Shown here piece after piece: positions 9,727-50,475 of a DNA stretch of 54,407 bases. Origin of the DNA: Acidimicrobiales bacterium. Its GTDB lineage: Bacteria > Actinomycetota > Acidimicrobiia > Acidimicrobiales > Acidimicrobilacustridaceae. Position 1 is the stretch's first letter. Every line of letters starts with the position of its first letter. The notes below the pieces were generated by a model. The model did no database searches, was not told the DNA's origin, and was given only the letters and a program-made list of their open reading frames with translations. The stretch is taken from the NCBI GenBank assembly GCA_044350215.1, contig JBILIB010000001.1, positions 1 to 54,407 of the forward strand, read 5' to 3'. The position numbers were made by a program, and so were the translations under genes.

Positions 9727-9749
9727 TCAGACCGTACTAGAAAGTCTGC

Positions 9750-10847: not shown

Positions 10848-10876
10848 CCAATCAAAACGCCGGCGAAAGAAACCGA

Positions 10877-11857: not shown

Positions 11858-12058
11858 GCGTCTAGAAACGGACGATGATCAGTTCTCCTAGGGCAGCATT
11901 CGGGGCAATTGCCGGAGCCCCTAGGGGTGTAGGTAGACCGACGGAGCCCTCGCTAGGAGCGAGTTCGCCTTCTCGGGGGTGGATCGGTAGGATTGCCACC
12001 CGTTTCACGAACGTCAGCCGACGGCGCGCTATAGCGCTGCCTCCAGGAGCACCGAATC

Positions 12059-30157: not shown

Positions 30158-30200
30158 CACGTTCGTGCGAATGTCTGATCGCCTAAAGGGCGATCGTCAT

Positions 30201-31498: not shown

Positions 31499-31587
31499 GT
31501 TCCCCCTCGGCGCGAACCCGCCGGAACTGCACCGGCGAACGGATTGCAGACTAGCCGAGCAGGGGAGCGGATTGGCTCGTCGGATGC

Positions 31588-32193: not shown

Positions 32194-32849
32194 GCGTGCC
32201 GATTGAAACGGCATGGAAGGTGCTGACTGACGTCGAGCGCATTGCTCCGTGTCTGCCCGGCGCACAACTTCAGGAAATCGAAGGCGAGGAATACCGCGGC
32301 ATCGTCAAGGTCAAGGTCGGTCCGATCCAGGCTCAGTACAAGGGCAAGGCCACGTTCCTCGAGCGCGACGACGTCAACTTCAAAGCCGTTCTCGACGCAG
32401 CCGGTCGCGATACGCGCGGTCAGGGCAACGCAAGCGCCATCATCACTGCTCAACTCGAAGCAGCCGGCGAGAGCACTCTCGTCACCGTCACCACCGACCT
32501 CACGGTCACTGGCAAAGTCGCGCAGTTCGGGCGCGGAGTCTTGGCTGATGTCAGCGCAAAAATTCTCACTCAGTTCGTCGACAATCTTGAACAGACTGTG
32601 CTTGTCGACGACGCCATCCTCGCTCCGATAGCTGAAGCACCTGCCGCTGCACCTGTTGCATCAGACGCGCCGGCTGCAGCTTCAGCCGAAGAGGCTCCAA
32701 CAATCCGCAAGATCGATCAGCCCGAACCTGAAGCAATCAATCTCCTTGAGCAGGCAGGATCGCCCGTTCTCAAGCGTGCGGTCCCGATTCTTGGTGTCGC
32801 AGTCGGCGCGTTGATTGTGTACGGACTCATTCGTCGTCGCCGGAAGTGA
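32166..32849 (+). CDS. coxG: CoxG (SRPBCC) with C-terminal membrane anchor
   Basis: IAPCLPGA, VKVGPI, GKVAQFGRG, TM followed by RRRRK. Confidence 0.9.
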   Translation: MELINTFEVSVPIETAWKVLTDVERIAPCLPGAQLQEIEGEEYRGIVKVKVGPIQAQYKGKATFLERDDVNFKAVLDAAGRDTRGQGNASAIITAQLEAAGESTLVTVTTDLTVTGKVAQFGRGVLADVSAKILTQFVDNLEQTVLVDDAILAPIAEAPAAAPVASDAPAAASAEEAPTIRKIDQPEPEAINLLEQAGSPVLKRAVPILGVAVGALIVYGLIRRRRK

Positions 32850-33334
32850 CCACAGTGGCCGACGATCGAGCCCGGGTTGCCGAGCTTCTCGGTCGTGCGC
32901 CAATGGGGGAGTTCGAGGTCGTTGTGCGCAGCAGCAACGGAGACCCCGCTGTCCTTCGCAACGCTCCGATACTTCCCGATGGAACGCCAATGCCAACGCT
33001 CTATTGGTTATGTGACCCAAGCGTTCGGTCGGCAATCGGAACCATTGAGTCCGACGGCGGAGTGCGCACCGCAGAAGCCGAACTGGGTCTTGAAGTGATT
33101 GAGGCGGCGCATGCTGCCTATGCGGCCGAACGCGATCAGGCAATGCCTGATGACCATCAAGGTCCGGCGCCCTATGGCGGTGTGGGCGGTACTCGAGAAG
33201 GTTTGAAGTGTTTGCACGCGCATTACGCGCATTGGCTCGCAGGTGGCGATGACCCAGTGGGTGAATGGACGAATAGGCAACTGATCGACCGCGGATTGCT
33301 ACCAATCGATGCTCCAAAGCGGGTGAAACGATGA
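32846..33334 (+). CDS. DUF501 domain protein
   Basis: DGTPMPTLYWL, GGVGG, KCLHAH; normal neighbour of ftsB and ppx in actinobacteria. Confidence 0.9.
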   Translation: MTTVADDRARVAELLGRAPMGEFEVVVRSSNGDPAVLRNAPILPDGTPMPTLYWLCDPSVRSAIGTIESDGGVRTAEAELGLEVIEAAHAAYAAERDQAMPDDHQGPAPYGGVGGTREGLKCLHAHYAHWLAGGDDPVGEWTNRQLIDRGLLPIDAPKRVKR

Positions 33335-34318: not shown

Positions 34319-34909
34319 GTGACCACATTGTTCGGACGTCGAGTACTGCTTCGTCCGCTCGTGGCGGCTGATTTCCCCGCATGGCGTGAAGTCCGACGAC
34401 GAAATAGCGAGTGGCTCACAAAGTGGGAGCCAACTCGCCCTCCGGGCGCCCCTGATGTCATTGAGGATCGAGAAGCGTTCACGATCCGTTGCAACTCTCG
34501 GCAGCGGGAGCGCCAATTGGGCTCTGGCTATGGATTCGGCATTTTCGTCGAAGGCGAATTTTCCGGCGAGATCAACTTGTCGGCGGTGCAGCGGGGCCCG
34601 TTTCAGGCCGGAAGTATTGGTTACTGGATCGACGAGGCGCGAGCAGGTCAGGGCTACACCCCTGAAGCCGTTGTTGTGCTGGCGAAGTACTGCTTCGATG
34701 ATCTCCACTTGCACCGTCTCGAAATCGCGATTGTTCCTCGCAATGGCGCGAGTCGTCGAGTCGTCGAAAAGTTAGAGCTACGCGATGAAGGTCTCGCGAA
34801 GGGATTCCTTGAGATCAATGGAAACTGGGAAGACCACGTTCGTTATGGCATCACATTCGAAGACTGGCTCGAACGCGGACCATCATTGTGCGAGGCCTGG
34901 CTCTCGTGA
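34319..34909 (+). CDS. RimJ/RimL-family GNAT N-acetyltransferase
   Basis: IGYWID...GQG, LHRLEI, N.AS.RV.EK, INGNWEDH; TAGGAT -10 (34305-34310) 8 nt before GTG. Confidence 0.9.
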   Translation: MTTLFGRRVLLRPLVAADFPAWREVRRRNSEWLTKWEPTRPPGAPDVIEDREAFTIRCNSRQRERQLGSGYGFGIFVEGEFSGEINLSAVQRGPFQAGSIGYWIDEARAGQGYTPEAVVVLAKYCFDDLHLHRLEIAIVPRNGASRRVVEKLELRDEGLAKGFLEINGNWEDHVRYGITFEDWLERGPSLCEAWLS

Positions 34910-36237
34910 GCGATGCGGCGACAGGTCGCCCTCAAGTAAAACCTGATGGAGCATTTGTTGCGTTTCGCTATCGCAACTTTCGCTGGATGTGGAGCGCATC
35001 GCTGCTCTCAAGCAGTGGTTCCTGGTTGCAGATGGTGGCAGTTCCCTACGTGGTCTACACAATTACCGGAAGTGGCGCTTGGCTTGGGTTTGCCGGATTC
35101 CTTGGCTACGCCCCGATGGTGATTACAGGACCGTACGCAGGATCGGTCGCAGACCGTTTCGACCGTCGCAAGGTTCTGATCATCGGGGGCCTCATCCAAG
35201 CGACAATTACATTCGTGCTCTGGATTGCATGGATCGAAGGCGTGCGAAATATTGCCTTTTTCTTAGCGGTCCTGACGCTTGGTGCATTCGCAGGTGGTTT
35301 TACCGTTGCCGCGTGGCAATCGTTTGTCACCGAATTGGTTCCGCGTGAACACCTTTTGAATGCAGTGACATTGAATTCCGCACAGTTCAACGCGGCCCGA
35401 GCGTTCGGACCTGCGCTTGGTGGCGTGGTGCTTGCGACTTTGGGTGTTAGTTGGTGCTTCTTCATCAACGCAGTTTCTTTTCTCGCGATGGTCGGCGGTT
35501 TGCTTGTTATTTCCGTTCCGCCACTTGTGCGCGCAGTGAAAGTCGGCAAGCCGCGACCACTCGCTGAAATGCGCGAGGCGATGCGCTATGTCCGGACTGT
35601 GCCCGGCATCGTCACTTGCCTCATCGTGGTGTGCTCGTTGGGAATGCTCGGTGGTCCGTTATTCAATCTGCTCGTTGTGTTTGCCACCGATGTGTACAAA
35701 ATCGGAGACAGTGCCTACGGCGTACTCGCCGGATGTATGGGTGCCGGTGCAATCATCGTTGCTCCGATCGTTGCAGGACGCGGGAGTCGAGTAAGCCGCA
35801 GCCGAGTGTTGACTATCGCGATGGTCGCGTACGGAGTGGCCCTTGTGGCCCTCGGAGCTGCCCCAGTCGTCCTTGTTGGCGCTGCAGCCTTGCTGGTTGC
35901 TGGTGCCGGTTACCTCGGGATTACCGCCAGCCTCAACACCACCGTGCAGTTGCAGGTGAAAGAAGAGATGCGTGGGCGAACCATGGCGCTTTATCTGATG
36001 GTTCTCACCGCTGCTGTTCCGTTTGGTGCCCTCATTCAGGGTTGGCTGGTCGATGTCATCGGAGTGCAAAAGACTGTTGCTGGTGCAGGTGTTTTGTTCT
36101 TGGCCGTTTTTGTTGTGATGCGCTTTGTTCTCAACCGACTTTCAACAATGGATGCCGTTGATCACGAATTCGGCGCTGAAGACGCGCTGCATATTGCCGA
36201 AGCGGAAGCAACCGAAGCAGCTATCGATCCGATCTAA
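34906..36237 (+). CDS. MFS transporter
   Basis: Multiple TM segments; GSVADRFDRR motif A; GTGA overlap with GNAT. Confidence 0.9.
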   Translation: MSDAATGRPQVKPDGAFVAFRYRNFRWMWSASLLSSSGSWLQMVAVPYVVYTITGSGAWLGFAGFLGYAPMVITGPYAGSVADRFDRRKVLIIGGLIQATITFVLWIAWIEGVRNIAFFLAVLTLGAFAGGFTVAAWQSFVTELVPREHLLNAVTLNSAQFNAARAFGPALGGVVLATLGVSWCFFINAVSFLAMVGGLLVISVPPLVRAVKVGKPRPLAEMREAMRYVRTVPGIVTCLIVVCSLGMLGGPLFNLLVVFATDVYKIGDSAYGVLAGCMGAGAIIVAPIVAGRGSRVSRSRVLTIAMVAYGVALVALGAAPVVLVGAAALLVAGAGYLGITASLNTTVQLQVKEEMRGRTMALYLMVLTAAVPFGALIQGWLVDVIGVQKTVAGAGVLFLAVFVVMRFVLNRLSTMDAVDHEFGAEDALHIAEAEATEAAIDPI

Positions 36238-37769: not shown

Positions 37770-37856
37770 GCCCGGATGGCGGAATTGGCAGACGCAGGGG
37801 GCTTAAACCCCCCGGCCTTTCGGGGCTTGTGGGTTCAAATCCCACTCCGGGCACCA
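37770..37856 (+). tRNA. tRNA-Leu (TAA)
   Basis: GCCCGGA/TCCGGGC acceptor stem, GGGGG-CTTAAAC-CCCCC anticodon arm, long variable arm, GTTCAAATC, encoded CCA. Confidence 0.97.
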
Positions 37857-38048
37857 CGGACCTACATCTCTGCAGGAGAGTCAACTCGCACCACCGTGCC
37901 GGCGGGCAAAATTGTGCGCACTGTGTGAGCGGAGAGATCGGATTCAGCATGGTTTGAGGACGGATCTGTCCGTGTGGAAGCACGTGGAGTTGGCGTATCG
38001 GTGACGCCAATGAAGCAGTCTCAACACCTCGGCAATAACCTCGCCGCC

Positions 38049-38897
38049 GTGCGCACCAGACGGACCGACTTCATCACCTTCGGGGGTGGCAGATCGGGTT
38101 TCCCTCGCGCTGCGCGTCGTCTGGCCAGCGAGGCCAGGCGATCCGAGTTGTTCCAGACCTCCGAATCGATCACCCACAAGGACCTGTTCCGGGATCACCC
38201 GGACTTCGCCGCCCGTCACGCCTCGAGGCTCAATGCGGCCACGCGCGGTTTTGGCTACTGGTTGTGGAAGCCGTACCTCCTCGAAAGTGCACTGCGCGAG
38301 ACGTCGGCCGACTACCTGCTCTACCTCGACGCGGGGTGCGTGTTGAACCTTTCCAGTGCCCGCGCCCGGCAGCGACTCGACGAGTACCACGACATCGCCG
38401 ACCAGAACGGCCTTGCAGTGATGCAGATCCACCATCGGGAGCAAGTTTGGTGCAAGTCGGACACCATGGATCGGCTCGGACTCGATGAACCCGGTCGTTC
38501 CAGCGGTCAAATCCAGGGCGGGACCATCCTGATCAAACGCTCGTCTACCACACAGGACTTCGTGCGGACCTGGCTCGAAATCTCCGAAGAGGATGACTGT
38601 CGGTATCTGAACGACTCACCAAGCACCCGCCCCAATCATCCCGACTTTAAGGAACACCGACACGATCAGGCGATCCTGAGCTGTTTGTGCAAGGTGACGG
38701 GCATTGTCCCCATCGCTGATGAGACCTACTTCGCTCCCGACTGGGCGATCGGTGGCGCAGACCTGCCCATCTGGGCGGCCCGTCACCGCTGGGGAAGCCC
38801 TTTCCGGCCCGATGAGCCGTATTCACTCTCACATCGGGCTGAATGGTGTTTCGATCGGGCCGAGCAATGGTGGGCAGCTCACACGCGACAGGGCTGA
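38049..38897 (+). CDS. Putative glycosyltransferase-like protein (GYW.WKP / D.G / HRHDQ type)
   Basis: GYWLWKPY, YLDAG, EHRHDQAILS; TAACCT -10 7 nt before GTG 38049; codons look more C/G-ending than neighbours. Confidence 0.6.
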   Translation: MRTRRTDFITFGGGRSGFPRAARRLASEARRSELFQTSESITHKDLFRDHPDFAARHASRLNAATRGFGYWLWKPYLLESALRETSADYLLYLDAGCVLNLSSARARQRLDEYHDIADQNGLAVMQIHHREQVWCKSDTMDRLGLDEPGRSSGQIQGGTILIKRSSTTQDFVRTWLEISEEDDCRYLNDSPSTRPNHPDFKEHRHDQAILSCLCKVTGIVPIADETYFAPDWAIGGADLPIWAARHRWGSPFRPDEPYSLSHRAEWCFDRAEQWWAAHTRQG

Positions 38898-39001
38898 ACC
38901 ACGCACACCCCATCTTGCCCAGGAATCGTCGCCTTGGCCCCCATCGACCGCGGCGTGCTTCTCAAGGTGGTGGCCGATGCCCCCTCCCGAAGGCATCGCA
39001 T

Positions 39002-39481
39002 GACGTCGGCCCCGATACTGCGGATCCAAAGAACTTCACATGGGGCGCCGATCCCACGTTGGCCGGTCCAGATCTCAGTCGGGTGCCAGCGGCAATTGCG
39101 TCGGGAAACAGTGTTGGTTACACCGAGCGCCTTGATTATGTGTTTGTGCGCGGTGAGATCACGATCGTCAGTAGCAAGGTCGTAGGCAATTCTTGGCCGA
39201 CATGTATCTCCACTTGGTCATGTGGTGCGGATGCGCAGGTGTCGAACTCGGCCAAAGCTGCTGTTGCGCTCGGTGTTTCTGCACCAGATCAGGCCGTCTG
39301 TTTTGGGTCTGACCATGCTGCAGTAGTTGTAGTGGCGCAACTAGGAACGACAGCCTCGAGCTCAAGTAGTTCGCGGATTTGGTTTGTTGTTGCTGGAGTG
39401 TTCATTGTCGTGATCGTCGCGGCGATCGTTTGGGGTCTCGTGCATCGATCATCGGGTTCGCCTCCCATCGAATCGAAGTGA
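39002..39481 (+). pseudogene. 5'-truncated endonuclease/exonuclease/phosphatase (EEP) family gene with C-terminal TM
   Basis: FTWG, ERLDYVFVRG, SDHAAV and TM anchor present; N-terminal catalytic motifs and plausible start absent. Confidence 0.7.
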
Positions 39482-39533: not shown

Positions 39534-40649
39534 TCAGTTGAGTACTTCATCAAGTTCAACGAAGCGCCCCTCCTCGATGCTGCGATGGGCAGCAACACCG
39601 ACAGCGACCGAAGCGAGCCCGTCGCGCAAAGTCACCGCCGGTTCACTCTCCGAAAGAATCGCGTCGCGCAGAGCAACATGTTCAAGGTACGACGCACCGT
39701 GGTGCATGCCGATGTGGCGAATATCGGGGTCGGCAACGGGCTCTGTGCTCACGTTCCCGTAACCAGCGGATCGTCGGCCGATGCGAACGATTCCCTCTGA
39801 AACCAATGCCTCTACTTTTCCAAGATGACCGACGACGGAGATCTCCTGTTCGTTACGGCTCGCTTCGGCGAACATGCATAAATCAAGCATGGCTCGTGCT
39901 CCGTGTTCGTACTCGATGATCACGAACGCGTTGTCGAGAATGTCGGGAACTTCGCCGTCATAGCGCTCGTCGAGATGATTCACATCTTGCGCACCACTTG
40001 CCATGACGCGAACCGGTCGGTCGTCGACGAGGAGGTTCATGAGGTCGAAGAAGTGACAGCACTTCTCAACAAGCGTTCCGCCGGTATTGCGATTAAATCG
40101 GTTCCAGTCGCCGACCTTCATCAAGAACGGGAATCGGTGCTCACGGATAGCGACCATCTGCACTTGGCCAACGGTTCCGGCTCGAATCTCGGCCAGCACT
40201 CGTTGAGTCGGGGGCATGAACCGGTACTCGAGTCCCATCCAGATGACGCGACCGGGACGGTCGGTGGCCTCGGCGCGATCGATCGCGTCTTTGCAATGTT
40301 CGACGGTGGTACACAGCGGTTTCTCTACCAGTGCGTGTACACCGCTATCGAGTACGTCGAGCAGGACTTCGTGATGGGTGTGATTCGGTGATGCGATTAC
40401 CACGACATCGCAGAGTCCGGAATCGAGCAGTTCGCGATGATTACTGAACGAAGCCATGCGGGTGCCGGGATTCACGGCGGCCTGGGCTCGATCGATGCTT
40501 TCTAAATGGGGGTCGCTCACTGCCGTGACGATGGCACCTTCGAGATGTCCGATGTTGGCGATGTGCTCGCGTCCCATCATTCCCGCGCCAATGATTCCGT
40601 AGCGCAGGACCTCTCCGGGTTGGGTTCGGCCGTCGGCTATTTCCACCAT
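39534..40649 (-). CDS. sqgA: Gfo/Idh/MocA-fold protein, probable NAD+-dependent sulfoquinovosidase (GH188, SqgA-like)
   Basis: GAGMMG, EKP, LEYRFMP, EHRFPFLMKVGDWNRF, GGTLVEKCCHFFDL, HHGA match GH188 motifs as recalled; adjacent to smoB/smoC-like genes. Confidence 0.75.
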   Translation of the reverse strand: MVEIADGRTQPGEVLRYGIIGAGMMGREHIANIGHLEGAIVTAVSDPHLESIDRAQAAVNPGTRMASFSNHRELLDSGLCDVVVIASPNHTHHEVLLDVLDSGVHALVEKPLCTTVEHCKDAIDRAEATDRPGRVIWMGLEYRFMPPTQRVLAEIRAGTVGQVQMVAIREHRFPFLMKVGDWNRFNRNTGGTLVEKCCHFFDLMNLLVDDRPVRVMASGAQDVNHLDERYDGEVPDILDNAFVIIEYEHGARAMLDLCMFAEASRNEQEISVVGHLGKVEALVSEGIVRIGRRSAGYGNVSTEPVADPDIRHIGMHHGASYLEHVALRDAILSESEPAVTLRDGLASVAVGVAAHRSIEEGRFVELDEVLN

Positions 40650-40667
40650 GGAACTAGCCTACGGCCC
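40650..40667. promoter_or_regulatory. Bidirectional leaderless promoter with overlapping -10 elements
   Basis: TAGCCTA (40655-40661) reads TAGCCT on + (7 nt before GTG 40668) and TAGGCT on - (6 nt before ATG 40649). Confidence 0.75.
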
Positions 40668-41579
40668 GTGATTGATGTGACTTCTCCGCTGCCGCTTCCA
40701 GGGTCGCGCTTAATTGCTGGGCGCTCGGTTGGACCTTTGGGATTCGGCTGTTGGCGTCTGACCACCTCGTCAACTGAAGAAGCGTCCCGTCTTGTGGAAG
40801 GAGCCGTTGACCTCGGGTGCACACTGATCGACACTGCCGATGTCTATGGGCTTGATTGGGGCGGCACAGGATGGGGCACGTGTGAGGAGCGCCTTGGTGC
40901 GGTACTCGCCGCCCGATCGGGATTGCGTGAACGTATGTTTCTCGTCACGAAGGGAGGGATCGTTCCCGGAGTTCCTTACGACAGCAGTGGTGACTACTTG
41001 ACTTCAGCTTGTGAAGCGTCGTTGCGTCGTTTAGGGGTCGACCACGTTGATCTCTTCATGGTCCATCGACCTGACCTTCTTTCGCATCCGGCCGATGTGG
41101 CCGAAACGCTGCAGTCGTTGCGCGACCGTGGACTCATAAGTGCGATCGGCGTTTCGAACCACACCGTCGCGCAGGTTGAAGCGCTTCAGTCCTACTTGGA
41201 CGAACCGGTAGCGGCGATTCAACCTGAGTTCTCGGTGGCTGCACTTGGAGCGATGCGCGATGGAGTCCTTGATCAAGCGATGCAGCATCGATCTGCCGTG
41301 CTCTCATGGAGCCCCTTGGCTGGTGGACGAGTACTAACCGGAGAAGGACTCCGTCCGGAGTTGATTGAAGTCCTCGATCGCATCGCCGCTACCCACGATG
41401 TCGACCGCACGTCGATAGCGCTGGCGTTCGTGCTCGCTCATCCTGCCCAGCCCATTGCACTTCTGGGTACGCAGCGACTCGATCGGATCGAAGCAGCACG
41501 ACAGGCACTCAGTATTTCTCTGTCACGAGCCGAGTGGTTTTCGATCATCGAAGCGAGCGAGGGAGTGCCACTTCCTTGA
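40668..41579 (+). CDS. smoB: Aldo/keto reductase, probable 6-oxo-glucose reductase (SmoB-like)
   Basis: GCWR, DTADVYG, TKGG, HRPD, GVSN, WSPLAGG; coupled to smoC-like gene. Confidence 0.72.
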   Translation: MIDVTSPLPLPGSRLIAGRSVGPLGFGCWRLTTSSTEEASRLVEGAVDLGCTLIDTADVYGLDWGGTGWGTCEERLGAVLAARSGLRERMFLVTKGGIVPGVPYDSSGDYLTSACEASLRRLGVDHVDLFMVHRPDLLSHPADVAETLQSLRDRGLISAIGVSNHTVAQVEALQSYLDEPVAAIQPEFSVAALGAMRDGVLDQAMQHRSAVLSWSPLAGGRVLTGEGLRPELIEVLDRIAATHDVDRTSIALAFVLAHPAQPIALLGTQRLDRIEAARQALSISLSRAEWFSIIEASEGVPLP

Positions 41580-42634
41580 CCCGCACCGGTGCACCGCTCG
41601 AGATGGCATGGTTCGCCGCGTTGTGCGATGACGACTATGAACAACTCGGTGTCGTTGACGAGCAACTCCTTAGTAGCCCAGAACATTGTGGCGACATCGT
41701 TCGTGCTGCCGATCAGTGCGGATTCGATTCGATCCTGATGCCATCGGGCTATGCGCTCGGTATCGATACGGTCACCTTCACTGCGGCGATTGCGTCATCG
41801 ACCCGAAACATCCGTCCGATCGTGGCCATACGCATGGGTGAGGTCTGGGTACCGACGCTGGCCCGTCAGTTGGCCACCCTCGACCACCTGCTTGATGGAC
41901 GGTTGATCGTCAATGTGATCTCGAGCGAAATGCCGGGCGAGTCACTCGACGCCGAATCTCGCTATCAGCGCACCGTTGAGCACATGACTGCACTGCGTGC
42001 GTTGCTCGATGGTGGGCGGTTGCAGGTCGACGGAGAGTGGCTTGGTATCGATATTGATCCACCGCGTCTAACCACGGTGTCACGACAGTGTCCACCGCTG
42101 TACTTCGGGGGCCTCTCGGAGGCGGCCCGCGAAGTCGCCGCTCGCGGCGCGGACGTGTACCTCATGTGGCCCGACACGTATGAACAAATTGCCGAAACTG
42201 TTGCTGATCTCCGTGGCCGAGCAGCGCGTCACGATCGCGAGTTGAGCTTCGGCTATCGCGTGCATGTGGTGGTTCGACCCACCGAAGCCGAAGCTCGAGT
42301 CGCTGCCGACTACCTCGTTGCTGCCCTCGATCCGGCAATCGGAGACGCCATTCGTTCGCGTTCGCTTGACAGCACGTCAGTAGGAGTCAAAGCGCAGGCG
42401 GCGTTGCGCCTTGGCAGCGATGAAGACGGCTATGCCGAGCCGAACCTTTGGACCGGCATCGGACGCGCTCGCAGTGGTTGTGGTGCCGCCATTGTCGGAT
42501 CACCAAGGCAGGTGGCAGACAAGATCGAGTCCTATCGCGACCTCGGCATCGATACGTTCATCTTGTCCGGATACCCGCACCTTGATGAATGTCGCCGATT
42601 CGCCGAACTGGTGCTGCCGCTTCTGAGGGCGTGA
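41576..42634 (+). CDS. smoC: LLM flavin-dependent monooxygenase, probable sulfoquinovose monooxygenase (SmoC-like)
   Basis: WFAALCDDDY..LGV, NVISS, LYFGG, DVYLMWP, LWTGIGRARSGCGAA, FILSGYPHLDE match Agrobacterium SmoC as recalled; TTGA overlap and GGGAG RBS. Confidence 0.8.
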   Translation: MTRTGAPLEMAWFAALCDDDYEQLGVVDEQLLSSPEHCGDIVRAADQCGFDSILMPSGYALGIDTVTFTAAIASSTRNIRPIVAIRMGEVWVPTLARQLATLDHLLDGRLIVNVISSEMPGESLDAESRYQRTVEHMTALRALLDGGRLQVDGEWLGIDIDPPRLTTVSRQCPPLYFGGLSEAAREVAARGADVYLMWPDTYEQIAETVADLRGRAARHDRELSFGYRVHVVVRPTEAEARVAADYLVAALDPAIGDAIRSRSLDSTSVGVKAQAALRLGSDEDGYAEPNLWTGIGRARSGCGAAIVGSPRQVADKIESYRDLGIDTFILSGYPHLDECRRFAELVLPLLRA

Positions 42635-42723: not shown

Positions 42724-42847
42724 AGTTGATCAGCGGGTCTCGCGGGAGTCCGAGGATGCGCTCGCCGATCTGGTTGCGCTTGATCTCTGAAGTTCCGCCG
42801 GCAATCGCCAACGCACGATGCATGAGTTGCAATGTGCCACCCATGAA
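42724..42847. repeat. 124-bp perfect direct repeat, copy 1 (orphan 3' end of acyl-CoA dehydrogenase)
   Basis: Identical base for base to 50478-50601; stop TGA here versus TAA in the intact gene. Confidence 0.97.
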
Positions 42848-42874
42848 CCAAGGCTGCTTAGGGCCTTTCCCCGT

Positions 42875-42915
42875 GGCCTTTCGTGACTTGCGGATTCAAA
42901 TTCCGCTCCGGGCAC
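42875..42915 (+). repeat. Diverged 3' fragment of tRNA-Leu (att-like relic)
   Basis: 35/41 identical to 37814-37854 without gaps; T stem GCGGA/TCCGC versus GTGGG/CCCAC. Confidence 0.88.
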
Positions 42916-42924
42916 AACGAGTAG

Positions 42925-45900
42925 TTAGGCAGTGGTTTCGGCTGCAGTGTCTGCCGAGGGCGTCTCGGGGTATTCCTCGGTTGCGACATCTCGGCGCGGC
43001 AGAAGTGTCACGAGGGCACACAGCAACGCTATGGCTGCGAGTGCGCTCACGGGGTATGACGCGGCACCCCACAGGTTTGAGGGGTAATCAACGATCCTCT
43101 TGCCGAGAACGACGAGTACGCCAGCGGCACTCATTGAGAGAAAAGCGATTGGTGCGAGCCACGAGCGACGATGATTTCGTAGCCACCACGCCGGTAGAAG
43201 AAGCACTGCGCCAATGCCGGTGCACCACACAGCGCCGATAGCGACACCAGCGATGAGAAGCGCTTTCGCTGGTTGTCCTTCGTTGAGTGCGTCGAGTTGG
43301 CGTTTCTTTCGGTCCGGCCAGAGAGCCATCACGAAAACTGCGAGCAACGTGAATAATCCAAAGGCGGTGCCGAGTTTGAAGATGCGGTCAGGTGCGAAAC
43401 GCAGATCCACCGTGCCGCCATCGCCCTCGGGCACGATGAACGCCAGGCGCCAGCCGTCAATCTTGAGAGGTGTGAGTGTTGTTCCATTGAGAGTTGCCTC
43501 CCATCCTTCATTGAATGCTTCGTTGACGACGAGAAGCCCTTCGGTTCCACCCGCCACCGTGACCGTGCGGTCGTTTGTTCCCCAATGATTGACCTTGAGT
43601 GTGCGTGGCAATCCAGTTGGCGCTGCCATCGTCGGTGAATTGCCAAGCACAAGTTGATCGACGGTAACGAGAGATGAACCGCTTGATGTGTCGAGAAGGG
43701 TCACACCCGCATTGAGAGCCACGTTTTCGGTTCCGCACGGAACAAGATCGAAGGGAGTGCCGTCGATGAGTGTGCCTGCCGTTGTGGCGATTGAATAGGA
43801 AAGTGCGGCTGAACCGATAGCAACTTTGGGCCCTGTATCGCAGGCAGCGACGTACGGCACCGAGCGATCGATGGGTCCGGGATAGAGATCGGAAAGAGCC
43901 GTTACGTCAATTGAGCCGAAACCCATCACTCGTGAAGAGGTTCTGTCGTCCAAGGGGACGGGCGCGTAATTGAGGCGGAGAGTGAGAGAGCTCGTCGTGA
44001 TTGGTTCGAACGTGACGGTGCCGTCGGCGGCGACTGGGGCGCTGCGGGCTTCCGTGCCCGCGTAGATCACAATGTCTTGTGGCATTGCTTCGTCGTTGCC
44101 ACGGACAAGGACGAGCGATGAAATCGATCGAGGTTCGCTCCATCTCATGTCGATGAGTGAACTACCTCCAACTGCAGTGATGTCGTTTCCGCTGCGCCAA
44201 TGAGTGGTGGTATCGCCATCAACGAGGTTGCGTGGGCTAACCCTGGGATTTTCGCCCCAGGTGGAGTCTGCAGTGACTGAGAAATCTGGTGTGCTTCCGA
44301 GCCAGCGGAGAAGTGGCTGTCCCTTCGTCGATGAGGCTGAAGCAAGGAGTCGGAACTTGCCGTCTTTAGGGACCGTGAATTTTCGAGCGATCTGAGATTC
44401 AGAATTGAGAGAAACGAGGGGTGATGTGGCGGCGCGGTTACGGGTGAATACCCATGCAGGGTCAGGAGACCCCGGAGTCGAGAACTGATCGTTGAGTTGA
44501 TTGGGTACGACGAGGCGGGGGGTGACCGGCGTTCCTGGAAGAGTCAGCTCACGAATCCCGATGACGTCGTCAATCGCGAAATAGGAACTGCGGGCGATGG
44601 AAACTTTGACCGAACTCGTAATGCCGGGGACAACATTTAAAGGTTGCTTCACTTGAATTGGTAGCAGCGTGGTGGTCGCGTCGCCGGCGTCGGTGTGAAC
44701 GGTGACGTCAATGGGCGACAATGTTGCGTACGGGCCGATGTACAGCGCGGTTTCAATTTGATTCAGGAGTGTCGGCGTTGTGAATTTTGTCTCGACGAAG
44801 GGATCGACTGGTCCCCATGCATCGAATCCATTGACTTCGATCCGGCGCGGAACCCACCAGGTGTTCGCGTCGCCATCCAGAATTTTCGCCGGATCAAAGG
44901 CGGGGATATTGGCTACGAACATTCCTGGGCCAACGCTTGAGGCAGTGACTGACGAGAACCCGTCGAGTTCTTGGTAGGTGCGACTCGTCGGATCCTGCCC
45001 TGCAGGAACTACATCGCCCGCGAAGTCGTGGATGTAACTCTTGTTGTTGCGATTGAGTCCGTAGTCGATCGTCGATGCTTGGTTGCCATCGGTGATGATC
45101 CACTGCGATGGGAGGAGCGGAGAGGGAACGCGATCGCGGGAAAGTAGGTACGGGCGATCCCCGAATACGGACGAAGGTACGGAAAGTGTCGATGCGATAT
45201 CGCCGCTCAACCACGTGGTTGACGAAGCCGCGTAGGTGGCCGCAACAGCGCCACCGGGCACCGAGTAAATATCTATTTGTTGAAGGTCTCCAAAGCCATA
45301 TCCACGATCACCGAATGCGGCAGTCAGCGTGAACCCACTCGCAGTCATTGCGTTTCGAACTGTCTCAGGCGGCGGAGCGCCGTAGTCCTCTGAACGTTGG
45401 TCGTTGGGAACGACGACTGCGGTGAATCCGCCGCGACGGAGATATTCCATTAGCCCCGTATCGCCGCCGCGTTCGATTGATGTTTCGGTGACATCGAGGT
45501 ATTCGACGATGTCGATACCGCTCAGAGGGGCCTGGCTGCGTGTTGCCCACGTGACATTTGATCCCCACTGGATGGGAATCTGCGCGGTGAAGCCCCAATC
45601 GAAATCAGCATCGGGAATGCCCGGGAGAACCAGCGTGCGGCCGGGTGAATTCTCTGACAGCCATGCGTTCGCTTCGACCCACGCTGCGGGGATTTCAGCG
45701 GCGCCAGGACCTCGAGTGAGAGAGTTTCTCCAAAGCGGCCACGATGCGCATGCGAGAACAACGATCGTGACTGCGGCGACACCCTGCTTCGCAATCTGGC
45801 GATTCTTTGCGTGATTGCCTTCAAGTATCCCGGCGAGGAGATGCGCGAGTCCAAACGCAAGTGGAAGCGCGATGAGTGGCTGAAATTTATAGACGTTGCG

Positions 45901-47001
45901 GAACGCGTTAAGAGCTCCATCGAGCAATGTCTGGTACTGCGTGGTTGCTGGATTCCCGAAGACGCCTCCGAAGCCACCACCAACTGCAGCGACCCCGAGT
46001 AAAAGACTTGTGACGAGGAACATTCGCTCGGGGAGTCGACGCCGCGCCAAACCTGCGAGGCCAGCGCCGGCAACAACGGCCGTCGCAAGGATTGGTATCG
46101 ATCGAAGGGAAAGTGCGAATCCAGCGGGGTTTGTAGCGCCGGGCAATCGTGAAACCCAGTCAGCGGTACCTCGAAGAACTTCGAAAAGTGAGGTTGGCCC
46201 CGTTGTGGTTCTTACCGACTCGGTGTACTGGAGCACATCGGGTCCGTATTTCCCGAAGAGGTAGAGGCCAACGAGCCACCACAGAGTGGCCATTGGTGCG
46301 GCGATAGCCCACCAGCGCAGCAGGCTTGCTCGACGCTGTCCCCGTGTACGCGTGAGCAGATAGAGAACTGGAACCGGAAGAACTGCGATGGTGACAGCCG
46401 CATTTGCACCACCTATGAGGGCGATAGCTATCGCCGAACGAGCGGCGGCCTTTCGTGTGGAACCAGTTTTGGAAGCGAGCACGAGCGGCAGCAATGCCCA
46501 AGGTAGGAATACCACTCCCATCGCGAACGGTGATTGCCATCCGACTCGAGAGAGGATGACGGGGGAGATTGCATAGGCAAATCCGGCAGCTATACGTGTC
46601 GATGGCCGCCCAATTTTGAACGCGTCGGCGAGACGGACGAATCCCCACAGTGCCAGCGCAATGAAGAAGTAAATGAAAAGTCGTTCACTGATCCACGGTG
46701 GGATGTGAAGTGCTTTCGCTATGCCAAACCAGAGGTCAAATGGAAACCAATAACCGTTCTGCTGAAATTGGATGGAACCCATATCCCAATAGGGATTCCA
46801 TAACTCGAATCCGCGTCCGACCATTGTGAATGGATCAAGGATCCGATCAAGACGCGTCAGGTAGACGATTTCGCCAAATCGCTGAGCGAATGCTCCGAAC
46901 AGGATGGGCAGGGTCGCAAGCGCGATCCACTTCGAGGGCGTGACCGATTCAGTCAACGACGGTTCTTGCGTGGCTTTAGGGGCCGAGGTCAAAGCGGTCA
47001 T
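42925..47001 (-). CDS. AftD/DUF3367-family GT-C glycosyltransferase with discoidin-like (F5/8, CBM32) modules
   Basis: WNP..G.IQFQQNGYWFP, WISER, GGANAAVT, FRNVYKF, two DG...T.W modules, NEGWEA, DGWR; many TM. Start 47001 or 47046. Confidence 0.85.
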   Translation of the reverse strand: MTALTSAPKATQEPSLTESVTPSKWIALATLPILFGAFAQRFGEIVYLTRLDRILDPFTMVGRGFELWNPYWDMGSIQFQQNGYWFPFDLWFGIAKALHIPPWISERLFIYFFIALALWGFVRLADAFKIGRPSTRIAAGFAYAISPVILSRVGWQSPFAMGVVFLPWALLPLVLASKTGSTRKAAARSAIAIALIGGANAAVTIAVLPVPVLYLLTRTRGQRRASLLRWWAIAAPMATLWWLVGLYLFGKYGPDVLQYTESVRTTTGPTSLFEVLRGTADWVSRLPGATNPAGFALSLRSIPILATAVVAGAGLAGLARRRLPERMFLVTSLLLGVAAVGGGFGGVFGNPATTQYQTLLDGALNAFRNVYKFQPLIALPLAFGLAHLLAGILEGNHAKNRQIAKQGVAAVTIVVLACASWPLWRNSLTRGPGAAEIPAAWVEANAWLSENSPGRTLVLPGIPDADFDWGFTAQIPIQWGSNVTWATRSQAPLSGIDIVEYLDVTETSIERGGDTGLMEYLRRGGFTAVVVPNDQRSEDYGAPPPETVRNAMTASGFTLTAAFGDRGYGFGDLQQIDIYSVPGGAVAATYAASSTTWLSGDIASTLSVPSSVFGDRPYLLSRDRVPSPLLPSQWIITDGNQASTIDYGLNRNNKSYIHDFAGDVVPAGQDPTSRTYQELDGFSSVTASSVGPGMFVANIPAFDPAKILDGDANTWWVPRRIEVNGFDAWGPVDPFVETKFTTPTLLNQIETALYIGPYATLSPIDVTVHTDAGDATTTLLPIQVKQPLNVVPGITSSVKVSIARSSYFAIDDVIGIRELTLPGTPVTPRLVVPNQLNDQFSTPGSPDPAWVFTRNRAATSPLVSLNSESQIARKFTVPKDGKFRLLASASSTKGQPLLRWLGSTPDFSVTADSTWGENPRVSPRNLVDGDTTTHWRSGNDITAVGGSSLIDMRWSEPRSISSLVLVRGNDEAMPQDIVIYAGTEARSAPVAADGTVTFEPITTSSLTLRLNYAPVPLDDRTSSRVMGFGSIDVTALSDLYPGPIDRSVPYVAACDTGPKVAIGSAALSYSIATTAGTLIDGTPFDLVPCGTENVALNAGVTLLDTSSGSSLVTVDQLVLGNSPTMAAPTGLPRTLKVNHWGTNDRTVTVAGGTEGLLVVNEAFNEGWEATLNGTTLTPLKIDGWRLAFIVPEGDGGTVDLRFAPDRIFKLGTAFGLFTLLAVFVMALWPDRKKRQLDALNEGQPAKALLIAGVAIGAVWCTGIGAVLLLPAWWLRNHRRSWLAPIAFLSMSAAGVLVVLGKRIVDYPSNLWGAASYPVSALAAIALLCALVTLLPRRDVATEEYPETPSADTAAETTA

Positions 47002-47023
47002 CGGTTCTGGACCCGGAACCTGG

Positions 47024-48079
47024 TCATTGTTCTCGAACTGTCTCATGAAGTACGGCCTCGAACATGTCGACCGCACGATCCCACGTAAAGATGGATGCTC
47101 TGTTTTTCGCCGCAGTCGCCATTTGGGCTCGCTGGCTGCCGTTGGCTGCCAGCGAGATCCATTGGGCAGCAAAGTCATTCTCGTCGGTGGCGAGGTATCC
47201 AGTGAGTCCGTTGGTGACGGAATCGCGTACCCCGTCAACGTCGAAGGCGAGGGTGGGGACGGATGCGGCGGCGGCTTCCATGACGACAGTGCCCCAACCT
47301 TCGTGGTGCGCTGGATGAATCAAGAGCCATGCTTGTGCGAGCTCGCTGCGTTTGCGGTTTTCGTCTACCCATCCGGTGAACTCCACATCGGGGCCCGCCA
47401 TGGAGCGGAGGTCGTTGAGTTCTGGCCCGTCGCCCACGATCACGAGCTGGCCGCCGGTGATCGGTCGCACGGTTTGCCACATTTTGAGGGCCAGTTCCAC
47501 TCGTTTGTGGGGAACGAGTCTGCTGAGGACGAGGAACCTTGGTTCCGTCGAAGGTGATGGCTCAAGTGGATCGAAAGCGAGTCCCATCTCAATTGTTGAG
47601 ATCTGGCTGGGTGTAATGCCGAGGTCGACCAATCCGCGTGTTGTCGATGGTGAGACGGAAATGAACGGCGCACGTCGGTACACGCGGGGCATGAACCAGC
47701 CTTCGAGCCATCTTCCGATCGCAGCGACTGACTTGGGAAATTGCATGCCCCATTGCTCGGTATGGACGTGGTGAACCAAGCCGATGACGGGTTTCCGCTG
47801 CCATAGCGGAGAGAAGAAAGGAATCCCGTTTTCGACATCGATGACGGCGTCGGCTCCCTTGCAGTGTCGAAAAAATGCAAATGGCGCAAACAGATACTGC
47901 GAATAGTTTCCACCGATGCTTGTGCTGCGATAGTTATGTTTTCCCGACGGGCCACCGTGAAGAAGCTGAACCTCGTGTCCGCGTTCGGTGAGCCTCGACG
48001 CAAGTTGATCGATGACGACTTCGGATCCGCCAGCTTGGGGGTGGGCGGTGTCGCGCCACGCGAGAAAAACAATCCGCAT
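47024..48079 (-). CDS. Glycosyltransferase family 4
   Basis: WRD..HP.AGGSE, RLVPHKR, EGWGTVVMEA. Confidence 0.92.
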   Translation of the reverse strand: MRIVFLAWRDTAHPQAGGSEVVIDQLASRLTERGHEVQLLHGGPSGKHNYRSTSIGGNYSQYLFAPFAFFRHCKGADAVIDVENGIPFFSPLWQRKPVIGLVHHVHTEQWGMQFPKSVAAIGRWLEGWFMPRVYRRAPFISVSPSTTRGLVDLGITPSQISTIEMGLAFDPLEPSPSTEPRFLVLSRLVPHKRVELALKMWQTVRPITGGQLVIVGDGPELNDLRSMAGPDVEFTGWVDENRKRSELAQAWLLIHPAHHEGWGTVVMEAAAASVPTLAFDVDGVRDSVTNGLTGYLATDENDFAAQWISLAANGSQRAQMATAAKNRASIFTWDRAVDMFEAVLHETVREQ

Positions 48080-48094
48080 GTGTTCGTCGAGTCT

Positions 48095-48868
48095 CTAGTG
48101 TTTTTTCGAAGAGGTGATTGGGATGGGCACCAAATGCCCGCTTCGGGAGGCTAGGCCCATAACCCTTGCGGATCGGGTGCGAATGCGAATCGGAATGAGA
48201 TCGATTGCTGTACGCAGGGAATCGCGCACGGGGCGGACCGCCGAGTGGTCACTTGCCACCCACAAAACGGGAACCTCATCGATTGAGTAGCCGAGAGCGA
48301 CTCCAAGGCGCAGGATTTCAGGATCGAACGCGAACCGATTGTTTTCCGAAAGTGAGAAGAGCAACCGAGCAACGTCCCCACGAAAGGCCTTGAATCCGCA
48401 TTGGGAGTCGTGAATGTCGAGGCCAGTTGACCAACGCATCAGTTGATTGAAGGTTCGACCCATGAGGGTCCGAAGCAGGTTTGAGCGTTCCACAATTGAG
48501 CCGGGCACGCTACGTGAGCCGATGACGATGTCGAACCTTGAGAGTCGCTGAAGAAAATCATCGATGTGTTCGAGTGAGGTTGAGAGGTCCGCGTCCATGA
48601 AGACGACTGCGTCTGATGTTGAGCGTGCAACCCCCGCTCGCAAAGCCGCTCCCTTGCCAAGGTTTCTCGGTAGTCGAACTAGCTGAATGCGATCGTCGCC
48701 TTGAGCGAGGTGTTCAGCAAGACCCGCAGAGTCGTCGGTGCTGCCGTCGTCGACAAGAATGATTTCGGTGTGGGAATCTGGGAAGCGGCGGGTTAGTTCA
48801 GTGAGCGTGGTCGGCAACGCACGCGCTTCGTTGAACATCGGGATGATGATGCTTCTCTCGGCCCCCAC
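48095..48868 (-). CDS. GT2 polyprenyl/dolichyl-phosphate glycosyltransferase-like
   Basis: IPMFNE, VDDGSTD, GKG, MDAD, GSR, DSQCGFK, FD.E; TAGGCT -10 7 nt before GTG 48868. Confidence 0.9.
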   Translation of the reverse strand: MGAERSIIIPMFNEARALPTTLTELTRRFPDSHTEIILVDDGSTDDSAGLAEHLAQGDDRIQLVRLPRNLGKGAALRAGVARSTSDAVVFMDADLSTSLEHIDDFLQRLSRFDIVIGSRSVPGSIVERSNLLRTLMGRTFNQLMRWSTGLDIHDSQCGFKAFRGDVARLLFSLSENNRFAFDPEILRLGVALGYSIDEVPVLWVASDHSAVRPVRDSLRTAIDLIPIRIRTRSARVMGLASRSGHLVPIPITSSKKH

Positions 48869-48941
48869 CCTCAATAGCCTAAGTGAATTTCCCTACAGGG
48901 TCGGGGGCATCTTTAAGTGGGTGGCCATGTGGACGAGAGGG

Positions 48942-49553
48942 CTACTCGGGCATGGGTAGGGCCGTCACAAGGATTGAGTGATGGACAACATTGAAACGGT
49001 CGGTTTCGATGACCTGGAATTCTTTTGCGATGGCACTTTCAAGCTGGTCTGAGGTCCGTGGGAAGTGTCCGGCATCGAGTTTCCAGAAGACCCTCGAAAA
49101 CCAGCGTCGTTTACGCCACACACCGTCAAGAAAAATGAATGATCCGCCTGGTTTCAACACGCGATTGGCTTCAGCTAATGACACGGGCCATATCGAATCA
49201 TCGAGGTGGTGAGAAACGCATTGCATCAACACCACGTCAGCGGTGTTGTCGGGGAGTGGAAGCGCCGAAGCATCACCCACAAGTCGCTCAATTGGCTTCT
49301 CTGTCGGCTCGACCTTGAGAACTCTCGCATCTGGATCGATGCTGTAGTAGGTCCAACCTGCGGGCCACATAGATCGACTGCGAGCAGTTCCGCCACCGAT
49401 GTCAACGACTGTGCCGATGGGCAGAGCAGCGAAGGTACGAGCAGCGACTGGACTCAGGTGGGCTTCGACACGACTCCGACCGAGTAGTCGTGTCTGGAAC
49501 TCATTCACTCGGGGATGAGAGACAATTCTTCCAAGGACGTCGCGAAATGACAT
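48942..49553 (-). CDS. Class I SAM-dependent methyltransferase
   Basis: VDIGGGT, GDASALP, HH, RVLKPGG; TATTCT -10 6 nt upstream. Confidence 0.9.
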   Translation of the reverse strand: MSFRDVLGRIVSHPRVNEFQTRLLGRSRVEAHLSPVAARTFAALPIGTVVDIGGGTARSRSMWPAGWTYYSIDPDARVLKVEPTEKPIERLVGDASALPLPDNTADVVLMQCVSHHLDDSIWPVSLAEANRVLKPGGSFIFLDGVWRKRRWFSRVFWKLDAGHFPRTSDQLESAIAKEFQVIETDRFNVVHHSILVTALPMPE

Positions 49554-49670
49554 GCGCAGAGAATAGGGGTGGAGATCCGCTAGGTTCGGGACGTCTTTCC
49601 CCGGGTGGGAGACAAAGAACTTGGGGCATGATCTGCAATGGGTGATTCAAACGGTGAGTACCAGCGGGGC

Positions 49671-50444: not shown

Positions 50445-50475
50445 ACGAGACGTCTTGAGTCTCTGTTGTTGCTGA

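What the first reader, a model, noticed from the sequence alone, without database searches (positions are those of the whole stretch)
39534..42634. Minimal three-gene sulfoquinovose monooxygenase (sulfo-SMO) module in an Acidimicrobiia-like genome
Seen: a Gfo/Idh/MocA gene divergent from a translationally coupled AKR-LLM pair. Established: sulfo-SMO uses an SQase, the flavin monooxygenase SmoC (SQ to 6-oxo-glucose plus sulfite) and the AKR SmoB; GH188 NAD+-dependent SQases are typically annotated as Gfo/Idh/MocA. The motifs match my recollection of SmoC (WF.ALC.DDY, LWTGIGRARSGCGAA) and GH188 (EYR, EHRFPFL.KV, HHG). The pathway was characterised mainly in Alphaproteobacteria. No flavin reductase, ABC transporter or regulator is adjacent. 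Inference: a streamlined route for algal/plant sulfolipid sugar that generic annotation would miss.
Basis: partly seen in the sequence, partly recalled or inferred. Interest (0 to 1): 0.85.

Follow-up and report, generated by a model that had tools for sequence, protein, structure and literature searches.

The report
Three-gene sulfosugar breakdown cassette
Three adjacent genes likely let this aquatic actinobacterium free the algal and plant sugar sulfoquinovose, strip its sulfur and reduce the rest to glucose; the pathway is known and already listed for this class, and what is added here is a predicted shared two-way promoter and a swappable position beside a tRNA gene.

Summary
39534-40649(-) is a GH188 sulfoquinovosidase (347 bits to a solved SqgA, 8 of 8 active-site residues). 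41576-42634(+) groups with SQ monooxygenase SmoC, apart from SsuD. 40668-41579(+) is an aldo-keto reductase, but only 34-35% identical to Agrobacterium-type SmoB, lacking its Lys120 loop; it matches the AKRs of sphingomonad smo clusters (43%). The same 9 of 33 genus relatives carry all three genes in this order. Novelty is lower than claimed: a 2026 survey lists 44 Acidimicrobiia genomes as sulfo-SMO, GH188 in smo clusters and clusters without flavin reductase are published, and this scan saw similar clusters on three other genomes. Added here: the 18-bp gap between the divergent genes holds TAGCCTA, two overlapping -10 boxes 6 and 7 nt before the start codons (21 of 31 head-to-head relatives; motif about tenfold depleted genome-wide), a predicted two-way leaderless promoter. 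The module lies in a 4.9-kb insertion after tRNA-Leu that a close relative lacks. No importer was identified. No enzyme was assayed.

The parts
39534..40649 (-). GH188 NAD+-dependent sulfoquinovosidase (SqgA), 371 aa
   Evidence: 347/344 bits to 8QC3/8QC2, next entry outside this group 81 bits; K110, Y142, R172, L176, K178, E195, H199, H316 match ArSqgA K107, Y136, R166, L170, K172, E189, H193, H321
40655..40661 (.). TAGCCTA: predicted overlapping -10 boxes (TAGCCT top, TAGGCT bottom), 7 nt before the AKR GTG and 6 nt before the GH188 ATG; predicted two-way leaderless promoter
   Evidence: geometry matches the 18-bp class in bioRxiv 2020.01.31.928960; transcription starts not measured
40668..41579 (+). 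aldo-keto reductase, likely 6-oxo-glucose reductase of the sphingomonad smo-cluster type, 303 aa
   Evidence: PF00248; tetrad D55/Y60/K95/H133 plus R134, W214, T268, R273 kept, SmoB Lys120 loop deleted; 43% to L084/L085 AKRs, 34-35% to SmoB-type and YdhF
41576..42634 (+). SmoC/SquD-type flavin-dependent sulfoquinovose monooxygenase, 352 aa
   Evidence: 338/335 bits to 7OLF/7OH2 against 236 (7JV3, MsuD) and 204 (SsuD); SmoC side of a 100%-supported split from SsuD; below the NCBIfam SsuD cut-offs
37770..37856 (+). tRNA-Leu(TAA), left anchor of the variable region
   Evidence: ARAGORN; same tRNA at the corresponding place in G001, G019, G024, G033
37974..38897 (+). ORF of unknown function inside the same insertion; weak lead to glycosyltransferase-like proteins
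   Evidence: no Pfam or NCBIfam hit; nearest named Atlas cluster carries PF05637 on 13% of members
38843..39481 (+). ORF of unknown function with a hydrophobic C-terminal segment, inside the same insertion
   Evidence: no Pfam or NCBIfam hit; also present in G023 (L138)
42724..42847 (-). 124-bp perfect copy of the 3' end of the acyl-CoA dehydrogenase gene at 50478-50601; right edge of the insertion
   Evidence: 100% identity over 124 bp; in G001 this sequence follows tRNA-Leu after 75 bp
42869..42919 (+). diverged copy of the tRNA-Leu 3' half, at the start of the neighbouring aftD/glycosyltransferase cassette
   Evidence: 82% over 51 bp to 37808-37858

Best explanation
The three genes likely form the catalytic core of the sulfo-SMO pathway, turning sulfoquinovosides into glucose and sulfite. 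Inferred steps: (1) sulfoquinovosyl glycerol or free SQ enters by a transporter not identified here; (2) the cytoplasmic GH188 enzyme would release SQ and glycerol by its NAD+-dependent redox mechanism; (3) the SmoC-type monooxygenase would use O2 and FMNH2, supplied in trans by a flavin reductase encoded elsewhere (best candidate G000 contig C133, 37% to a SmoA), to give 6-oxo-glucose and sulfite; (4) the AKR would reduce 6-oxo-glucose with NADPH to glucose, which polyphosphate glucokinase (C17) could phosphorylate. Expression is predicted to come from one 7-bp element whose two overlapping -10 boxes start leaderless transcripts at both start codons, with no dedicated regulator, and the AKR-SmoC pair is likely translationally coupled through its 4-nt overlap. 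Shown from sequence: family membership of GH188 and SmoC, the conserved linkage, the motif, and that the module sits in an insertion after tRNA-Leu that a close relative lacks.
For: GH188: 347 bits, 8 of 8 residues; the same residues in 53-54 of 54 homologues. SmoC: 338 bits; in the 50-row clade with Rhizobium/Ruegeria SmoC stand-ins, split from 15 SsuD-like rows with 100% support (the stand-in L086 scores 800 bits to 7OLF); it carries all 31 columns that separate the SmoC-like set from SsuD-like rows (the set was defined by identity to the window protein, so this is partly circular). Linkage: the same 9 of 33 genus relatives match all three genes, in the same order, and 24 match none; all 18 AKR matches at E<=1e-30 in other genomes of the family lie next to a SmoC-type gene; an AKR is beside the LLM in 63 of 80 loci. 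Sphingomonas paeninsulae has GH188(-), LacI, AKR, LLM in the same order with the same 4-nt overlap. Host context: two flavin reductases, polyphosphate glucokinase above cut-off, glycerol kinase and GlpD homologues, three TauE and one NIR/SIR match. Promoter: TANNNTA in 21 of 31 head-to-head junctions, 0 of 31 for control spacings, 0 of 43 AKR upstream regions without a head-to-head partner; 71 copies in the genome against 574-798 for other spacings; TANNNT peaks 6-9 nt before start codons genome-wide.
Against: No activity was measured. The seven SmoC sulfonate/flavin residues are also in most SsuD-like rows, so they do not show SQ specificity. The AKR lacks SmoB's glucose contact Lys120 in 72 of 72 Acidimicrobiia-locus homologues, and its fold matches YdhF-type AKRs (TM 0.87-0.89) as well as SmoB (0.83-0.85). 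I could not compare it with the assayed N. aromaticivorans SquF; L084 and L085 are unassayed stand-ins. No importer: no match in G000 to a sulfo-cluster ABC binding protein or TRAP subunits; TRAP 0 of 34 and SSS 0 of 34 in the genus; a sugar porter is in only 4 of 10 module-bearing genomes against 19 of 24 without. GH188 is within 8 kb of the LLM in only 34 of 80 loci. For the promoter: two contigs from RNA libraries (X1, X3) span the 18-bp gap, which strictly leaderless divergent transcripts would not give; DNA carry-over cannot be excluded. 10 of 31 junctions lack TANNNTA, and no -35 box was found.
Confidence: 0.82

Rival explanations
1. The GH188 and SmoC calls are right, but the AKR is not the 6-oxo-glucose reductase; it has another job (for example removing a reactive by-product) and another enzyme finishes the route.
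For: Only 34-35% to SmoB-type AKRs, no closer than to YdhF; Lys120 loop missing and an insertion after the catalytic Tyr; 17 of 80 LLM loci show no AKR within the DNA held.
Against: In the family this AKR type occurs only beside SmoC (18 of 18 matches); the same indel type sits in Novosphingobium and Sphingomonas smo clusters, and the assayed N. aromaticivorans SquF is a PF00248 protein; His151/Arg152/Trp232 and the NADPH-phosphate residues are kept.
Confidence: 0.08
2. The monooxygenase acts on another sulfonate (a general alkanesulfonate or a different sulfosugar), and the cluster is for sulfur scavenging from mixed sulfonates.
For: Only about 48-51% identical to Roseobacter/Rhizobium SmoC stand-ins; active-site residues are shared with SsuD; a sister clade with changed motifs exists in the same family (L106-L110), so specificity can shift in this group.
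Against: It is linked to an enzyme family reported to be specific for SQ glycosides; it is closer (57-61%) to LLMs in sphingomonad clusters that carry an SQase; it keeps the SmoC-type motifs that the sister clade has changed; it is far below SsuD cut-offs.
Confidence: 0.05
3. The enzymes are what they seem, but in this host the cassette is a passenger that contributes little because the cell cannot import SQ or SQGro.
For: No importer found; the cassette is absent from 24 of 33 genus relatives and from a 91%-identical neighbour locus in G001.
Against: All three frames are intact here and in most relatives; the genes are kept together across deep branches; a SmoC-type gene is in 61 of 300 near-complete genomes of the class. 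G000 is only 83% complete, and general MFS permeases were not tested.
Confidence: 0.05

Closest known systems
Sphingomonad sulfo-ASMO/SMO cluster (Novosphingobium aromaticivorans SquD + SquF, described in PMC9594981; stand-ins read here: N. pentaromativorans L084, Sphingomonas paeninsulae L085)
   Same: SQase, then AKR, then LLM in the same order; no flavin reductase in the cluster; L085 has a divergent GH188 and the same 4-nt AKR-LLM overlap; LLM 57-61% and AKR 43% identical; same AKR indels.
   Different: No LacI regulator and no TonB-dependent receptor here; L084 uses a GH31 SQase; the GH188 and AKR starts here are 18 bp apart.
Agrobacterium tumefaciens smoA-I (sulfo-SMO; PMC8795539) and Roseobacter/Rhizobium GH188-type smo clusters (L086, L087)
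   Same: SmoC-family monooxygenase with the seven named residues; an AKR with the catalytic tetrad; GH188 as SQase in L086 and L087.
   Different: No smoA, no ABC or TRAP importer, no exporter, no GntR; gene order AKR-LLM instead of LLM-AKR; AKR only 34-35% identical and lacking Lys120.
GH188 SqgA of Arthrobacter and Flavobacterium (PMC10755693; PDB 8QC2, 8QC3)
   Same: Full-length match and all eight catalytic and sulfonate-binding residues, including Leu170 rather than the Tyr variant of PMC11465081.
   Different: Linked to sulfo-SMO instead of sulfo-EMP; lacks part of a C-terminal insertion.
Bacterial bidirectional promoters of the 18-bp class (bioRxiv 2020.01.31.928960)
   Same: Overlapping -10 elements on opposite strands, 18 bp between the predicted starts; reported as common in actinobacteria.
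   Different: Here both predicted starts coincide with start codons (doubly leaderless); predicted only, not mapped.

Membership tests
GH188 (SqgA) | Rossmann plus alpha/beta dimerisation domain with high similarity to SqgA | tested here: met
   347/344/313 bits to 8QC3/8QC2/8ZN9, next hit 81 bits; below the IolG cut-off, 123 against 355
GH188 (SqgA) | Sulfonate triad Arg166, Leu170, Lys172 | tested here: met
   R172, L176, K178
GH188 (SqgA) | Catalytic and sugar residues Lys107, Tyr136, Glu189, His193, His321 | tested here: met
   K110, Y142, E195, H199, H316; numbering read from the 8QC3 alignment with a 13-residue offset
GH188 (SqgA) | NAD+-dependent cleavage of SQ glycosides | not testable with these tools
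   needs an enzyme assay
SmoC/SquD SQ monooxygenase | Groups with SmoC, apart from SsuD/MsuD | tested here: met
   quick IQ-TREE, 65 of 120 rows, SH-aLRT 100 for the split from SsuD-like rows; 94 for the 45-row clade that excludes the sister group; the careful tree did not finish
SmoC/SquD SQ monooxygenase | Trp206, Arg236, His238, Tyr341, His343 and Tyr136, Ser189 | tested here: met
   W198, R228, H230, Y333, H335, Y130, S181; not diagnostic, as 15-16 of 16 SsuD-like rows share each
SmoC/SquD SQ monooxygenase | Sulfite release from SQ and not from other sulfonates | not testable with these tools
   needs an enzyme assay
SmoB (Agrobacterium type) | AKR catalytic tetrad and NADPH-phosphate residues | tested here: met
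   D55, Y60, K95, H133; T268, R273; Asn285 is Gln
SmoB (Agrobacterium type) | Glucose contacts Arg152 and Lys120 | tested here: not met
   Arg kept (R134); Lys120 loop deleted
SmoB (Agrobacterium type) | Groups with SmoB apart from YdhF | tested here: not met
   L086/L087 SmoB-type rows join E. coli YdhF (100), not the window protein; L086 AKR scores 523 bits to 7BBY
SquF (Novosphingobium type) | Orthology to the assayed N. aromaticivorans SquF | tested here: inconclusive
   sequence of the assayed protein not at hand; 43% and shared indels with AKRs of other sphingomonad clusters; their joint branch is not resolved in the quick tree
sulfo-SMO gene cluster | SQ monooxygenase and reductase within 10 ORFs (PMC13372026), with an SQase (PMC8795539) | tested here: met
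   three adjacent genes
sulfo-SMO gene cluster | Flavin reductase and importer in the cluster (Agrobacterium form) | tested here: not met
   none among neighbours; reductase not required in the N. aromaticivorans form
Bidirectional promoter, 18-bp class | Overlapping TANNNT boxes on both strands at 6-7 nt from the starts | tested here: met
Bidirectional promoter, 18-bp class | Mapped divergent transcription starts | tested here: inconclusive
   only assembled contigs of RNA runs were available; two span the gap

The most novel reading that the evidence does not exclude
Acidimicrobiia are a large, under-counted group of complete sulfoquinovose mineralisers (a SmoC-type gene in 61 of 300 near-complete genomes of the class). 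Their streamlined members run the pathway from a mobile, regulator-free cassette switched on by a single 7-bp double -10 element that starts two leaderless mRNAs, with an unassayed reductase subfamily and an importer of a type not yet linked to SQ, since the genus lacks TRAP, SSS and recognisable sugar-ABC binding proteins. At 44-51% identity to Roseobacter-type genes they would fall under the 54% and 60% cut-offs of a published ocean survey.
Probability: 0.35. Interest if true: 0.55.

Novelty: new member of a known kind. Interest (0 to 1): 0.32.

Why it matters
Sulfoquinovose turnover is a large term in the sulfur cycle, and sulfo-SMO lets one cell recover both carbon and sulfur. This locus confirms, with residue-level and linkage evidence, that small-genome Acidimicrobiia carry the full catalytic core including an SQase, which the published table did not require. 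It gives three concrete tests: an AKR subfamily with a different substrate loop, an unidentified SQ/SQGro importer, and a very compact two-way leaderless promoter. It also suggests that surveys seeded with Roseobacter sequences under-count these genes: the window's proteins are 48% (LLM) and 46% (GH188) identical to the Ruegeria TM1040 ones, and PMC12780224 used 60% and 54% cut-offs against R. denitrificans (that strain was not compared here). None of this changes the known chemistry.

Tried and rejected
SsuD/MsuD identity for the LLM: rejected. Inositol or other Gfo/Idh/MocA dehydrogenase: rejected. Recent transfer from a distant donor: not supported; GC equals the genome's and the nearest relatives are Acidimicrobiia loci. 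Conserved neighbouring importer, reductase or regulator: 96 of 150 listed flanking ORFs from 43 loci were scanned at E<=1e-12; no flavin reductase or ABC/TRAP family, one MFS (L038) and three unrelated regulators. Import as whole lipid through Mce: no PF02470 match in G000, 83% complete. Sugar porter as importer: does not track the module. The three strongest ABC binding proteins of G000 resemble polyamine, thiamine and phosphonate/iron-type binders. The window's MFS gene (34888-36237) is also present in genomes without the module. No YeiH-type exporter match. Sigma-70 two-box scan: 0 sites. Single-sequence fold of the AKR was unusable (pLDDT 49); the 57-row fold (pLDDT 93) did not separate SmoB from YdhF. 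RNA runs held at most 12% of the words; pieces were short and scattered over both the module and a 20-kb control, so they show neither expression nor habitat. Literature: 'sulfoquinovose' + 'Acidimicrobiia' gave 1 unrelated paper; none of the 25 listed of 158 papers contained 'sulfoquinovose'; 'Acidimicrobiia' + 'leaderless' + 'transcription start' gave 0. Main texts only; subscription papers such as Liu et al. 2021 were not searchable.
Full report
Observation. The three ORFs are real: 39534-40649 (-), 40668-41579 (+) and 41576-42634 (+), the last two overlapping by TTGA. Pfam gives Gfo/Idh/MocA, aldo-keto reductase and luciferase-like monooxygenase. The window is contig C205 of a 2.22-Mb, 83%-complete genome. 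Each gene is single-copy and has host-like GC.

GH188. The Gfo protein scores 347 and 344 bits to 8QC3 and 8QC2, and 81 bits to the first entry outside that group. 8QC2 is named as a GH188 structure in PMC11465081 (part 1 of 2 read). PMC10755693 (parts 1-2 of 4 read) names eight active-site residues; all eight are present, and each is kept in 53-54 of 54 homologues. That paper already reports GH188 in sulfo-SMO clusters.

Monooxygenase. It scores 338 and 335 bits to 7OLF and 7OH2 against 236 for 7JV3 and 204 for SsuD. I take 7OH2 as RoSmoC because the residue numbers given in PMC8795539 (parts 2-4 of 9 read) fall on its alignment; the entry title does not say so. All seven named residues are present, but SsuD-like rows share them. 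In a quick tree of 65 of 120 collected rows the protein lies on the SmoC side of a 100%-supported split from 15 SsuD-like rows (the careful search did not finish). It is closer to LLMs of sphingomonad clusters (57-61%) than to Roseobacter/Rhizobium-type SmoC (48-51%).

Reductase. This is the weak link. It scores 146, 144 and 138 bits to a Salmonella YdhF-type protein, SmoB and YdhF. The tetrad, Arg152, Trp232, Thr284 and Arg289 are kept, but the loop with glucose-binding Lys120 is deleted in it and in 72 of 72 homologues from the Acidimicrobiia-type loci; the same deletion and a matching insertion are in the AKRs of Novosphingobium and Sphingomonas smo clusters, which are 43% identical. Agrobacterium-type SmoB groups with YdhF. 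A confident model does not discriminate. The case for 6-oxo-glucose reduction rests on context: all 18 matches in other genomes of the family lie beside a SmoC-type gene.

Linkage. In the genus the same 9 of 33 other genomes match all three genes, in the same arrangement, and 24 match none (completeness 66-100%, kin not independent). They fall in two clades, 78-95% and 60-61% identical for the LLM, which are not sisters in the three trees. Among 80 related loci, 63 have the AKR and 34 a GH188 within the DNA held; two further weak Gfo matches (27%, 31%) were dropped. In the family four genomes have GH188 without a SmoC-type match and two have SmoC and GH188 without the AKR. In the class 61 of 300 near-complete genomes match at E<=1e-100.

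What is already in print. PMC13372026 (passages and Table S9 rows read) reports frequent sulfo-SMO clusters in Actinomycetota; all 44 Acidimicrobiia rows are sulfo-SMO, called from SmoB plus SmoC. PMC9594981 (passages) says clusters lacking the flavin reductase, as in N. aromaticivorans, are presumed to use other reductases. PMC12890257 and PMC13436972 (passages) still describe the pathway as mainly proteobacterial. Liu et al. 2021 was not seen. This scan noted similar clusters on three other genomes.

Missing parts. G000 has two PF01613 reductases. The one on C133 is 37% identical to a SmoA, and its orthologue (69%, same downstream gene) lies about 2 kb from the module in G007, with matches near the module in G010, G027 and G028 too; this may be chance. 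Polyphosphate glucokinase passes its cut-off; glycerol kinase and GlpD homologues, TauE, NIR/SIR and a sulfite-oxidase-family protein below SorA cut-offs are present. No importer was found: TRAP 0 of 34, SSS 0 of 34, PF13407 two marginal matches in 34; PF01547 matches are weak and occur with and without the module; the sugar porter is in 4 of 10 carriers and 19 of 24 non-carriers. This stays unexplained.

Promoter. The 18 bp between the divergent start codons contain TAGCCTA: TAGCCT lies 7 nt before the AKR GTG and TAGGCT, on the other strand, 6 nt before the GH188 ATG. TANNNT peaks at 6-9 nt before start codons across the genome (119, 58, 44, 32 against 2-10 at other spacings), so leaderless genes are likely common here. 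TANNNTA is rare: 71 copies against 574-798 for other spacings, and this is the only site in G000 with the full two-way geometry between long frames. It is found in 21 of 31 head-to-head junctions, in 20 of them as the only copy in the locus; control spacings 0 of 31; AKR genes without a head-to-head partner 0 of 43, though 25 of 43 have a one-way TANNNT. Both starts were in frame at leaderless distance in 9 of 17 relatives checked; others have 10-11 nt or an out-of-frame ATG on one side. The geometry is the commonest class in bioRxiv 2020.01.31.928960 (passages). Against a strict reading, contigs of RNA runs X1 and X3 span the gap; scattered pieces over a 20-kb control leave DNA carry-over open. 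An operator for an unlinked regulator is not excluded.

Location. In G001 (one contig, 91% identical flanks) tRNA-Leu is followed after 75 bp by the 3' end of an acyl-CoA dehydrogenase gene; one low-depth contig in run X4 shows the same join. G023 has the module directly before that gene (L138) and G024 has the aftD cassette directly after the tRNA. The window has both: module, a perfect 124-bp copy of the gene end, an 82% copy of the tRNA 3' half, then the aftD cassette and the full gene. The simplest reading is a tRNA-anchored variable region where cassettes are gained and swapped among relatives (inference); a mis-assembly at the perfect repeat was not excluded, and no integrase was seen among the ORFs scanned.

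Verdict. A genuine sulfo-SMO core, confidence about 0.82, closest to the sphingomonad form without its regulator and receptor. It is a new member of a known kind in a lineage already tabulated. The promoter, the reductase variant and the missing importer are modest, testable additions. Interest 0.32.

Noticed in passing
window 42848-50477: aftD-like arabinofuranosyltransferase, GT4, GT2 and methyltransferase cassette flanked by a perfect 124-bp direct repeat of the acyl-CoA dehydrogenase 3' end and starting with a diverged tRNA-Leu 3' half; looks like the latest cassette gained at this site.
   Followed up: partly
G000 whole genome: TANNNT is 4-5 times rarer than TANNNA/C/G (2504 against 9599-13124) and TANNNTA about tenfold rarer than other spacings, suggesting strong avoidance of stray -10 boxes; TANNNT peaks 6-9 nt before start codons.
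   Followed up: partly
window 48875-48881: The only other TANNNTA in the window is also TAGCCTA, just upstream of the GT2 gene 48095-48874 (-).
   Followed up: no
L047:6303-7019, L052:2684-3400, L063:1801-2517, L050:3181-3909: A DUF2071 gene sits between GH188 and the AKR in three loci and next to GH188 in a fourth; a possible accessory protein of SQ use. G000 has a 40% homologue elsewhere.
   Followed up: partly
L106-L110 (G076, G084, G085, G046, G041): A sister clade to SmoC (45-49% to the window LLM) with His343 changed to Leu in 4 of 5 and altered motifs; no AKR or GH188 match near it in the four loci read with flanks; likely a different substrate.
   Followed up: partly
L041, L062, L064, L090-L094: The module abuts a sufB-type gene in two related lineages, on opposite ends of the module; shared history or a link of released sulfur to Fe-S assembly.
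   Followed up: no
L119, L120, L122, L123 (G052, G053, G054, G056): GH188 without a SmoC-type match in the genome; in G052 and G053 an SsuD-like LLM lies 6-10 kb away.
   Followed up: no
L003:890-991; L062:7136-7986; L102:7113-9226: Apparently damaged copies: the GH188 start and junction seem deleted in L003; the AKR match is in two pieces in L062; AKR and GH188 matches are each in two pieces in L102. Could be assembly errors.
   Followed up: no
L083:1450-10044: Rhizobium plasmid locus with a SmoC-type LLM (61%) beside an ABC transporter, dehydratase, aldolase and lactonase, which looks like a mixed sulfo-ED/SMO cluster without an AKR.
   Followed up: no
window 29357-33334: Carbon monoxide dehydrogenase-like accessory and subunit genes (XdhC-, CoxM-, CoxS-, CoxG-like by my reading of the translations; not scanned).
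   Followed up: no
record titles: Several loci titled 'uncultured Bifidobacterium sp.' fall among Acidimicrobiia rows in the trees; the titles are probably wrong.
   Followed up: no
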